In this document: positions 41,301 to 44,300 of the stretch, piece after piece | Layout of the letters: every line of letters starts with the position of its first letter | Numbering within the stretch: the first letter of the stretch is position 1 | Assembly (NCBI GenBank): GCA_051362555.1 | Contig: CM120641.1 | Coordinates: 26,170,401-26,234,400 of the forward strand | Reading direction: 5' to 3' | Length of the DNA: 64,000 nucleotides | From: Lingula anatina | Lineage: Eukaryota; Animalia; Brachiopoda | Translations under genes and position numbers: made by a program | The notes under the pieces: generated by a model | Databases searched by the model: none | Told to the model about the DNA's origin: nothing | What the model saw: only the letters and a program-made list of their open reading frames with translations

Positions 41301-44300
41301 GAAAATTATTATTGTAAGCTAAGGAAATGGTATCTAGTAATTCTCTTACATCTAAATTGAAAAACTGAAGACAGTGGAACTCTGTGTACTGTCCTCTTAA
41401 CATGTACTTTAACAGCACTCTTGATATCTTTAAAGACAAAATTAACACCCATTTATAAAAAAAGTGGCTCTCTATGGGCGCATTCCCATAGATTTTAGAT
41501 CGATCTATCCCCGTGTCTCACTAGTCTCACTAGATTACTGTCAGATAATCCGGCTTAAAAGTCCGTCCCGCCTACTACAAGGTAAGGGGGTAATTAACTT
41601 TTGTATCCGCTCGGCTGACAGCTATTTAGCGGGAACCCCCAGGGAGTTAGGTCGATCTAGTTGGATCGATCTAATCTCTGGGAGTGGGGTCTATGTGAAG
41701 AGTTGCCATTAGGTTGCAGAAGTTTGTGAAGTTTATTGATGTTTTGTATTGATAAATAAACAGAGATTTCTGCTTCATGACAATGTGGTTTATCCTCTGT
41801 CTTTTATAGACATTTCAAATAGTTGCAGTCTGTTTAGCATATTACAGTTAGATAAAGACCTGCATTTATATACCACACATACGTGACAAATGGCTTCTGT
41901 ATATTTTATATGATGAATAGCTAAGTTTGGTTAGAATTGTATGCACCCAAAGGTTGAAACAGTACAGATGAATTTTTAAGGAGATTTATAGATTGCTGAA
42001 AGATACTCATTGAACCTACCTCCTAGGTCTTCAGTTAGAGATTTATCAGTGGATGGATGGTTAATCCTCAGCTGATCTGTGTGACTAATTAGTAGTAGGT
42101 CACTGGAAAAGCGGTATCAGCAGTTACAGAGTTATCGGGAGTCAAATTAGTCATTCAGCAGGAATCATCAAGCTAATTATATGATGCTCAGTGTGGTTTT
42201 TCTAATAATTTGTCATAAAGCGGATTTTTTATAATTATTATTTTATTATTTTTTACATTTTTTTTTACCTCCATTTTTTAAATGCATTTCCGAGCAAGTA
42301 ATCTGTTGCGACTAGAAATCTAAAACTAATAGTATTAATTTATGGGTTTTTTTCTGTTATTTCTGTAACCTTCTCAGTAGCTCCAGGTCTGCGGAGGGTC
42401 TGTAAACACGCAGGTCCCCAGACATTCCCCACCATGCTATAAATAGCTGGGCCAGTCAGGTGGTTTCCTGCCCACCTTGGGCTTCCATTACTGGCATATG
42501 GCCATGGACTTTGCCATTCAGAAGTAATGTGATCAACCACATGAGTTGCTCTTTGATTTTAAGCTACCAAATATTTGATAATCCTTTCAGCCTATTCATC
42601 ATATGCTCTCAATATTGGGTTATGAATGAATGCCACCTACGCATGTGGATAGCTTAATGTACATGCTTTTTAGCTGAAATCCTGTGACCTAAATACCAGG
42701 CATTGCTGGCGTATTCAGCTTCAGGCCAGTCAAAAGTCAGCAGCTCTGAATTCTAGAGCAATTACACTGACTTTGTGAATGGTTTGGTGTGGGAATACTT
42801 TTCTAGGTCAGCTCACAGGCTGCCATGACAACTGAATTCAGGAATTTTGGCGCATAGCCGGCTGGAGCGGAAATACTGTACAAATGTAATGGTATGCTGG
42901 TGGCATTATTGCAGTGTTTTTCATGATAACCGCATCTCCTTCCTGTCAGCCGCCGATGTTGTGTCCATGGTGGATCTACAGACCTTGGGATAACCAGGTC
43001 CTGGATCTCTCAGTCAAAGGTAGTTTTGAGTAGTAGTGTTCAGTGGTGGTGATGTTGGTGGTTTGTAGTGAATGAGGGTTGGATTCTTTGTCTGGTTATA
43101 TTGCCAGTTCAAAGCTGTGATGTGCCTGCCATGTGGCAGAGAAGACTAAAGGGATATAGGATGTGTACACCGTAAGCACTTTACATCCTGATTCGGGTTT
43201 CATTAGTTCTCTGCCTCAGACATTTTTTTTTTTAGAAACTGTGACCTAGGGATCATTGGAGTAAACACTTCATAGGGAATGGAAATATTTGATGCTGCAC
43301 CTTTCTTTCACCAACGCTTAACCTTGAGCCATATTAGCCATCTCCCGGTTAACCAGGTGATCTGCCTACTTACTATCAATGATGCATCTCGTGCTGTAAC
43401 ATATGTTTAAGAGAAGATTGTTCTGAAAATATGATAATGAGTACTTTGATGGATCGGGATGGAAAAGATCATCTATTTTAATGGTTTGTTGGTGAAATGT
43501 TTCAGGGACATTTGATTTTTTGGAAACTGAAGTAATGTGCTGGTTCATATTTTTGTTAGCCTGCCCAGACAGGATGACGGCACACATTTGCGTATGGTTT
43601 ACGTGAACACAGCATCTAAAAGAATAGGAGGAAAAGTACGCTTTCTTGATAATATTTTCAGGTCTGAAGGGAATTATTAACCATAAGAGCTGTTTTCGTT
43701 AAATCTGTGGCTGGCGGATGTAGGCTCCATTAACCTGATTGATAAATAAATTATACAGGAAATGAGCATATTGACATAATTGACCCAGGGTTCTTTAGAC
43801 TGGCTGCAGGTGTACTAAGCTCAATAGAGGCAGGCTAAAGTGTAATGATAATTATTAAAAAAAAAAAAAAAAACATAAGAAACATGTAATATCTCTAGAC
43901 ACATTATATTGTCTTTAGCCCAAATGGGTTGAAGAATTTGATGTTCTAGGGAAAAGGTTATTTCAGGAACCTAATCTGGCTTTAAAGTTAATGGTTAATT
44001 TTGAAAAAGGGGATTTCTAGATGTAATTGAAATTTCCGGATGTATTTATCAGCATGTTGTATGTTTAGAGTTGTAATTGACATTAATATTAAATGACAAG
44101 GTGATCTAGTTCAAAAGTATATTTAGGAAAAAATATTTGATATAAGGTGGAAGTAGTCCAAATTTGGTTATTAAACCATTTAAATTGATGAAATCAAGAT
44201 GAACATTGGATAATGAAGAAAACACATTTGCTGAAAGGTAAACAGAAAACTATAGCCGTATATATATGTGTGTATTGATGCCATTATTTATATTGATTAT

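What the first reader, a model, noticed from the sequence alone, without database searches (positions are those of the whole stretch)
42340..43025. Hidden alternative first exon encoding tandem Groucho-type (YRPW) and CtBP-type (VLDLSxK) motifs: possible promoter-driven activator/repressor switch
Seen: deep in the 10.8-kb intron, below the ORF-track cutoff, 42923-43019 reads MITASPSCQPPMLCPWWIYRPWDNQVLDLSVK. It ends on a phase-1 donor (AAAG|GTAGTT) that joins in frame to the first zinc-finger exon (44748). The preceding ~600 bp is GC-richer, with CTATAAATAG (TATA/MEF2-like, ~42437) and GCGGAAAT (ETS, ~42867); a good acceptor at 42948-42949 could alternatively feed the ATG at 42956. Known: [WFY]RPW tetrapeptides are Groucho/TLE-type motifs (Hairy, Ripply, Huckebein; YRPW in Hey binds weakly), and PxDLSxK binds CtBP. 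Inference: an internal promoter swaps the 528-aa Q/P/N-rich, kinase-site-rich N-terminus for a 21-32-aa dual-corepressor tag on the same ZnF-ELM2-SANT body. Two motifs plus the correct phase in one short frame seems unlikely by chance, but this was not computed.
Basis: partly seen in the sequence, partly recalled or inferred. Interest (0 to 1): 0.8.

Follow-up and report, generated by a model that had tools for sequence, protein, structure and literature searches.

The report
Hidden corepressor-tag first exon, TRERF1-like gene
RNA reads show that a lamp-shell gene of the TRERF1/ZNF541 chromatin-regulator family has an overlooked short exon spliced onto its zinc-finger exon, likely a second start that would swap a 528-residue front end for a small tag predicted to bind the repressor CtBP and possibly Groucho.

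Summary
The exon is real. The gene is the Lingula anatina TRERF1/ZNF541/MIDEAS-family gene. RNA reads span exactly the predicted joint 43019 to 44748: 5 reads in run X5 and 1 in X7, none in X1 or X4. X5 showed 5 short-exon and 0 long-exon joints, X1 0 and 10, so use differs between samples. Coverage in X5 and X7 starts about 60 bases after the TATA-like box. No read supports an upstream acceptor. Short alternative N-termini at this junction are annotated in a nemertean, an annelid and echinoderms, so the layout is old. The peptide is not conserved: 0 of 363 related proteins and 0 of 80 related loci carry both motifs; one bryozoan-like locus has a candidate first exon with DLSxK. Both motifs together are unlikely by chance (about 1e-5 to 1e-4, post hoc). 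VLDLS binds CtBP in ZBTB18; YRPW fails to bind TLE in Hey proteins. Both isoforms keep the HDAC-recruiting ELM2-SANT module, so a stronger-repressor isoform is more likely than an on/off switch. Translation (16 upstream ATGs) and binding are untested.

The parts
32322..33906 (+). Long N-terminal coding exon (528 codons; Q/P/N/M-rich, 27 S/T-P sites in residues 1-420, acidic-hydrophobic last 108 residues); phase-1 donor
   Evidence: Matches P0098 and P0099 residues 1-528; its end appears as loose ends at the zinc-finger acceptor in X1 (10 reads) and X7 (6 reads)
42437..42446 (+). TATA-like element CTATAAATAG, candidate internal core promoter
   Evidence: Single copy in the window; coverage in X7 and X5 is estimated to begin near 42495 and 42507; promoter function not tested
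42495..43019 (+). Alternative exon, most likely a first exon; the 5' end is approximate
   Evidence: Sense-strand coverage and joint 43019/44748
42867..42874 (+). ETS-like GCGGAAAT, inside the transcribed leader
   Evidence: Sequence; function not tested
42884..42993 (+). Nearest upstream ORFs: ATG-stop at 42884; out-of-frame 34-codon ORF 42889-42993 overlapping both in-frame ATGs; 10-codon ORF 42894-42926
   Evidence: 16 ATGs in 42470-42922 against 14 expected from local dinucleotides
42923..43019 (+). Coding part of the alternative exon: 32-residue tag (21 residues from ATG 42956)
   Evidence: the one listed variant here, 42955, is synonymous
42977..42988 (+). YRPW, Groucho/TLE-type tetrapeptide, internal, followed by D
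   Evidence: Sequence; binding not tested
42998..43018 (+). VLDLSVK, CtBP-type motif
   Evidence: Sequence; VLDLS binds CtBP in ZBTB18 (PMC9684030); binding not tested here
43020..44747 (+). Intron of the short isoform, GT..AG, 1728 bases, phase 1
44748..45040 (+). Shared exon with zinc fingers 1-2
   Evidence: Pfam zf-C2H2; RNA coverage and loose ends at both ends
46024..57502 (+). Shared downstream exons: further zinc fingers, PPYTPPP region, ELM2, SANT
   Evidence: P0099 mapped on the window; Pfam ELM2 and Myb; best solved relative is MIDEAS, E 1e-37

Best explanation
A short exon in intron 42495-43019 is spliced onto the zinc-finger exon of the Lingula TRERF1/ZNF541-family gene; it is likely a first exon from an internal promoter, and would give an isoform of about 1,150 residues whose small N-terminal tag is predicted to dock CtBP and possibly Groucho. 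Shown: transcription, the splice, the frame, and different junction counts between runs. Inferred: the promoter at about 42437-42470; translation from ATG 42923 or 42956; loss of an acidic, activation-like segment at the end of the long exon; CtBP binding through VLDLSVK (about 0.6 if translated); Groucho binding through YRPW (about 0.35 if translated). Both isoforms keep the zinc fingers and the ELM2-SANT module that assembles HDAC1/2-DNTTIP1 complexes in this family, so the likely effect is a more strongly repressive isoform, not an on/off switch.
For: Joint reads in X5 (5) and X7 (1); X5 5:0 against X1 0:10, Fisher p 3e-4. Every loose end of 20 or more letters in X1, X5 and X7 is accounted for by the two ends of the zinc-finger exon, so none points to an upstream acceptor on this exon. 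Short alternative N-termini join the same exon in Lineus (21 residues against 277), Diadema (9 against 552), Patiria (11 against 512) and Owenia (two short forms). Such tags are conserved within lineages: Diadema and Lytechinus identical over 9 residues; L024 and L064 share a 27-31 residue candidate tag, 0 of 2000 shuffles as good. Motif pair about 1e-5 to 1e-4 by chance. L005/L006 carry a candidate phase-1 first exon with DLSxK in the orthologous intron; 1 of 22 distinct strong-donor candidates, p about 0.008 post hoc. VLDLS binds CtBP and the LDL mutation abolishes it in ZBTB18 (PMC9684030, passages). Last 108 residues of the long exon: 17 D/E, 1 K/R, 19 F/W/Y/L; an MLSAINY-like motif in 85 of 298 and an FDLF-like motif in 110 of 298 long N-termini.
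Against: No homolog of the peptide: 0 of 363 related proteins have both motifs before finger 1 and 1 of 363 has a Groucho-type match; the 4 hits among 1.84 billion proteins are repeat proteins; 0 of 80 related loci have a Groucho-type motif in a candidate first exon. YRPW cannot bind TLE in Hey1/2 and needs Y to W (PMC1950541). The conserved internal FKPY of Znf703 proved dispensable (PMC6547707). WKPW-type matches in bird TRERF1 lie in the ELM2 domain, so the pattern alone misleads. The CtBP motif lacks the leading proline that Lingula Su(H) has (PMC6777938). The leader has 16 ATGs, one ORF overlaps both starts, and neither start has a purine at -3. Only 6 joint reads; tissues and stages unknown; X1 has reads starting near 42375, upstream of the TATA-like box, and no joint.
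Confidence: 0.45

Rival explanations
1. The exon is a real alternative first exon, but its job is only to supply a promoter and a start codon that drop the long N-terminus; the two motifs are accidental or neutral.
For: Short tags in other lineages are unrelated to this one and mostly lack both motifs; no homolog found; motif patterns were post hoc, and a scan of very many windows will meet 1e-5 events; YRPW is a reported non-binder.
Against: Joint probability about 1e-5 to 1e-4 for this one exon; DLSxK recurs in a candidate first exon of a bryozoan-like ortholog; tags are conserved within other lineages.
Confidence: 0.3
2. The short transcript is translated poorly, or starts at a later methionine. 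Upstream ORFs hold back the tagged protein, and the transcript mainly lowers output or yields a form lacking fingers 1-2.
For: 16 upstream ATGs in about 450 bases; a 34-codon out-of-frame ORF with G at -3 and +4 overlaps both starts; weak start contexts.
Against: The ATG count is near the local expectation of 14; the frame is open and in phase with the downstream exon; the only listed variant in the frame is synonymous; a start site nearer the ATG is not excluded, since depth steps up near 42760-42850.
Confidence: 0.17
3. The same stretch also serves as an internal cassette exon. An acceptor at 42913-42914 would insert 105 bases in frame between the long exon and the zinc-finger exon, adding the motifs to the full-length protein.
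For: Phase 1-1, 105 bases, open frame.
Against: No joint or loose end at that site in 4 runs, and coverage runs through it from upstream; weak pyrimidine tract.
Confidence: 0.08

Closest known systems
TRERF1 / ZNF541 / MIDEAS / SAEG-1 / CG16779 family (MiDAC-type HDAC1/2-DNTTIP1 scaffolds)
   Same: C2H2 fingers, PPYTPPP region, ELM2-SANT; HDAC1/2 and DNTTIP1 partners reported for the family (PMC3088716, PMC7319964, PMC8169937; passages).
   Different: No CtBP or TLE mention in the two papers searched for CtBP (TLE searched only); searches listed no paper on an alternative-promoter isoform with corepressor motifs. Echinoderm long N-termini carry PLNLS or PEDLS, that is, in the opposite isoform.
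Protostome Su(H) N-terminal Groucho and CtBP motifs; Hairless (PMC6777938, abstract and passages)
   Same: Paired Groucho and CtBP recruitment motifs in a poorly conserved N-terminal region of a transcription factor, including in Lingula.
   Different: There the motifs are PxDLS and GSLTPPDKV, conserved across phyla and shown to bind; here they are YRPW and VLDLS, confined so far to one species, on an alternative first exon, and untested.
Hes/Hey tetrapeptides (PMC1950541, passages)
   Same: YRPW equals the Hey variant; Hairy places a CtBP motif close to WRPW.
   Different: Here the motif is N-terminal and internal, and precedes the CtBP motif; Hey YRPW does not bind TLE.
ZBTB18 VLDLS (PMC9684030, passages); EBNA3A and LCoR VLDLS (recalled; two searches found no paper for LCoR)
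   Same: Identical pentapeptide, shown to bind CtBP in ZBTB18.
   Different: Unrelated proteins; not described as an alternative first exon in the passages seen.
Alternative-promoter isoforms that change a factor's regulatory sign, such as Drosophila Ovo-A/Ovo-B and TCF/LEF (recalled; TCF papers seen as listings only)
   Same: Promoter choice changes the N-terminus on a shared DNA-binding body.
   Different: Here the short form would gain repressor motifs in 21-32 residues while both forms keep an HDAC module.

Membership tests
TRERF1/ZNF541/MIDEAS family | ELM2 followed by SANT, closest to MIDEAS | tested here: met
   Pfam ELM2 1304-1358 and Myb 1412-1455 of P0099; MIDEAS best among 8 solved relatives, E 1e-37
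TRERF1/ZNF541/MIDEAS family | C2H2 fingers shared with ZNF541/CG16779-type orthologs and the PPYTPPP region | tested here: met
TRERF1/ZNF541/MIDEAS family | Binds HDAC1/2 and DNTTIP1 | not testable with these tools
   Shown for ZNF541 in PMC3088716; inferred here
Alternative first exon | Spliced to the shared downstream exon in RNA | tested here: met
   6 joint reads in 2 of 4 runs
Alternative first exon | No upstream splice; own capped start site | tested here: inconclusive
   No upstream joint or loose end listed, but depth is low and no start peak was called; CAGE not available
Alternative first exon | Translated in frame | not testable with these tools
   Frame and phase fit; upstream ORFs present
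Groucho/TLE WRPW-type motif | Aromatic-R-P-aromatic tetrapeptide (pattern recalled) | tested here: met
   YRPW at 42977-42988
Groucho/TLE WRPW-type motif | W or F at position 1, or C-terminal position | tested here: not met
   Y at position 1, internal; Hey YRPW does not bind TLE
Groucho/TLE WRPW-type motif | Conserved in orthologs | tested here: not met
   no other brachiopod was available
CtBP PxDLS motif | Canonical leading proline | tested here: not met
   V in place of P; VLDLS is a shown binding variant
CtBP PxDLS motif | Hydrophobic-DLS core with a following basic residue | tested here: met
   LDLSVK at 43001-43018
CtBP PxDLS motif | Conserved in orthologs | tested here: inconclusive
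   One bryozoan-like locus pair has DLSxK in a predicted first exon, at the other end of the tag
CtBP PxDLS motif | Mutation-sensitive binding to CtBP | not testable with these tools
   No CtBP or Groucho sequence was among the session's results, so no complex was folded

The most novel reading that the evidence does not exclude
An ancient internal promoter in the MiDAC scaffold gene acts as a plug-in site: each animal lineage hangs its own short motif tag on the zinc-finger/ELM2-SANT body, and in Lingula the tag couples a MiDAC-type HDAC complex directly to both Groucho and CtBP, turning an activator-leaning long form into a triple-corepressor form in some tissues or stages.
Probability: 0.2. 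Interest if true: 0.75.

Novelty: new variant of a known kind. Interest (0 to 1): 0.52.

Why it matters
The exon is absent from the three Lingula records of this protein's cluster, yet it supplied all 5 junction reads in one run. It points to a recurring two-promoter layout in a family whose mostly disordered N-terminal regions have little described function. If the tag binds, it links MiDAC-type complexes to CtBP and Groucho, and gives a compact test of how short motifs are gained through alternative first exons, and of whether an internal YRPW can bind Groucho.

Tried and rejected
No whole genome was held, so the second Lingula copy behind P0099 could not be read as DNA. No RNA holder was listed by word index; the runs came by species label. 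Only 42290-45100 was laid, so long-isoform counts come from loose ends, not joints. Peptide searches gave nothing usable: 4 repeat proteins, 0 solved chains, no Atlas hit, 0 Pfam families, best E 0.43 against 345 pre-finger regions. No Rfam match in 42000-43300; 42200-44750 is not repeated in the window. Two look-alikes in related introns were judged chance: L032:750-782 runs into a stop without a donor, and the L042 YRPW frame has no phase-1 donor; 3 Groucho-type matches in 196 kb is no more than the window background of 5 per 128,000 residues. Similarity to the 49-residue Owenia tag is not significant (p 0.37). Lower variation in the exon than in the zinc-finger exon in X7 is weak (Poisson p 0.02, Fisher p 0.11, coding part alone p 0.16; computed with 10 differences, the table lists 11). 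A simulation timed out and was replaced by analytic and shuffle estimates. No complex was folded: no Groucho or CtBP sequence was available. Three look-ups of earlier findings showed nothing.

Full report
Gene. A downstream exon is 100% identical to a Lingula anatina ELM2-SANT protein, and the other hits among the 97 are TRERF1/ZNF541-type proteins. The cluster holds three Lingula records: the long first exon alone (P0098, 529 aa), the C-terminal part (P0001, 865 aa) and a full-length copy on another contig (P0099, 1644 aa). None has the tag. P0099 maps on the window from 32322 to 57499, has C2H2, ELM2 and SANT domains, and MIDEAS is the best of 8 solved relatives.

Observation. Peptide, second ATG, phase-1 donor, both promoter-like motifs and the GC rise are as described. 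The analytic chance of both motif types in one 32-residue frame is about 9e-6 relaxed and 2-5e-7 strict; 17 of 200,000 residue shuffles keep both relaxed motifs; the intron offers 37 candidate ATG-to-phase-1 donor frames. The patterns were recalled and post hoc, and a scan of very many windows will meet such events now and then.

RNA. I laid 4 of the 9 listed runs, 6-25% of each, on 42290-45100. The joint 43019/44748 (GT..AG) was read 5 times in X5 (5 starts) and once in X7, and not in X1 or X4. Reads entering the zinc-finger exon from the long exon numbered 10 in X1 and 6 in X7. In X5 all 4 partly laid reads lie at the exon's other end, so its long-exon count is 0; X4's 3 partly laid reads are not itemised. 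X5 against X1 gives Fisher p 3e-4, but counts are small, mates may count twice, the studies and libraries differ, and tissues are unknown. Coverage is on the sense strand in the stranded runs and drops to zero after the donor bin in X1, X5 and X7; X4 has some intronic coverage there. Estimated first covered bases are 42495 (X7), 42507 (X5) and 42375 (X1). The first two fit a start just after the TATA-like box; X1 does not, and may be unspliced long transcript. The only listed variant in the tag is synonymous; 12 of 13 classed variants in the zinc-finger exon are too.

Relatives, proteins. Short alternative N-termini join the same exon in Lineus, Diadema, Lytechinus, Patiria and Owenia, so the two-start layout is probably old (inferred from annotations). 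The tags are mostly unrelated to each other and none resembles the Lingula tag (p 0.27-0.82). Of 363 proteins with finger 1, none has both motifs upstream and one has a Groucho-type match. Echinoderm long forms carry PLNLS or PEDLS. Isoforms are collapsed in these databases: I opened 30 clusters, at most 15 members listed each, and saw only the best 120 of 417 and of 239 hits, so short forms are under-sampled. No other brachiopod was named among the hits.

Relatives, introns. Of 189 confirmed places the best 80 loci were kept; they are redundant (44 distinct finger flanks), with a median 1.8 kb upstream and 39 with 2 kb or more. None has a Groucho-type motif in a candidate first exon. L005/L006, whose zinc-finger exon is 73% identical to that of the bryozoan Watersipora over 93 residues, have between the long exon and the zinc-finger exon a 26-codon frame starting MDLSMK with a near-consensus phase-1 donor that fits the downstream acceptor. 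One of 22 distinct strong-donor candidates has this pattern, p about 0.008 post hoc; it is unverified by RNA, sits at the start of its tag and has no proline. L024 and L064 share an aromatic-rich 27-31 residue candidate tag (0 of 2000 shuffles; 9 identical, 4 synonymous and 7 changed codons in the aligned block), with phase confirmed for L024 only. So short tags here can be under protein-level constraint, but they differ by lineage.

Motifs in print (passages read unless stated). VLDLS mediates ZBTB18-CtBP binding (PMC9684030). Hey YRPW cannot bind TLE, and Y to W restores it (PMC1950541). Huckebein FRPW and Brinker FKPY are cited as needed for Groucho binding, yet Znf703 FKPY was dispensable (PMC6547707). 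Paired Groucho and CtBP motifs are ancestral in protostome Su(H), with canonical PxDLS in Lingula (PMC6777938, abstract and passages). [quoted passage not shown] PMC2674455 added nothing. Searches listed no description of this isoform; the library lacks most subscription papers and I read no supplements.

Mechanism. Shown: a second exon feeding the zinc-finger exon in frame, with counts differing between runs. Inferred: an internal promoter; a product of about 1,150 residues (1644 minus 528 plus 32); loss of a segment whose last 108 residues are acidic and hydrophobic with conserved motifs, which resembles an activation domain but is untested; gain of a CtBP site and, less surely, a Groucho site. 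Since ELM2-SANT stays in both forms, I favour a stronger-repressor isoform (0.45) over a neutral start tag (0.30), a translationally held-back transcript (0.17; 16 upstream ATGs) and cassette use (0.08).

Verdict. Real, overlooked exon; a new variant of a known kind. Interest 0.52; 0.75 if dual binding and the switch hold (probability about 0.2).

Noticed in passing
L005:2921-2999 and L006:264-342: Candidate phase-1 first exon starting MDLSMK in the orthologous intron of a bryozoan-like gene; weakly like the 19-residue Owenia tag (p 0.016 of 28 pairs tested). A second candidate lies at L005:4773-4824.
   Followed up: partly
L024:3195-3276 and L064:6782-6875: Conserved Y/W/G-rich 27-31 residue candidate first exon upstream of the zinc-finger exon in two unnamed animals; no known motif recognised.
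   Followed up: partly
P0441 residues 2-8 and P0486 residues 40-46: A sea-star short tag and an annelid N-terminus share RL[VM]TPEF (0 of 1000 shuffles); possibly an ancient motif.
   Followed up: no
window 42913-43019: In-frame acceptor that could make a 105-base phase 1-1 cassette exon; no reads support it.
   Followed up: partly
window 44358-44733: Sense-strand intronic coverage only in run X1 (depth up to 5), with mismatches and a one-base gap; could be another start, retained intron or reads from elsewhere.
   Followed up: no
window 32322-33906 and 50625-57502: Public annotation splits this gene copy into a 529-aa and an 865-aa record, while RNA joins the long exon to the zinc-finger exon and another contig holds the full 1644-aa model.
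   Followed up: partly
window 26661-29120, minus strand: Open 819-codon non-LTR retrotransposon frame with a reverse transcriptase domain, upstream of the long exon.
   Followed up: no
window 59944-61092, minus strand: Two open frames of 249 and 129 codons with no Pfam match at E 0.1, downstream of the gene.
   Followed up: no
P0084, P0086, P0092, P0094, P0095: Echinoderm long N-termini keep PLNLS or PEDLS CtBP-type motifs that their short isoforms would lose, the reverse of Lingula.
   Followed up: no
L001:9021-10171: In this copy the long-exon-like region lies within about 500 bases of the zinc-finger exon, so the large intron appears to be short or absent.
   Followed up: no
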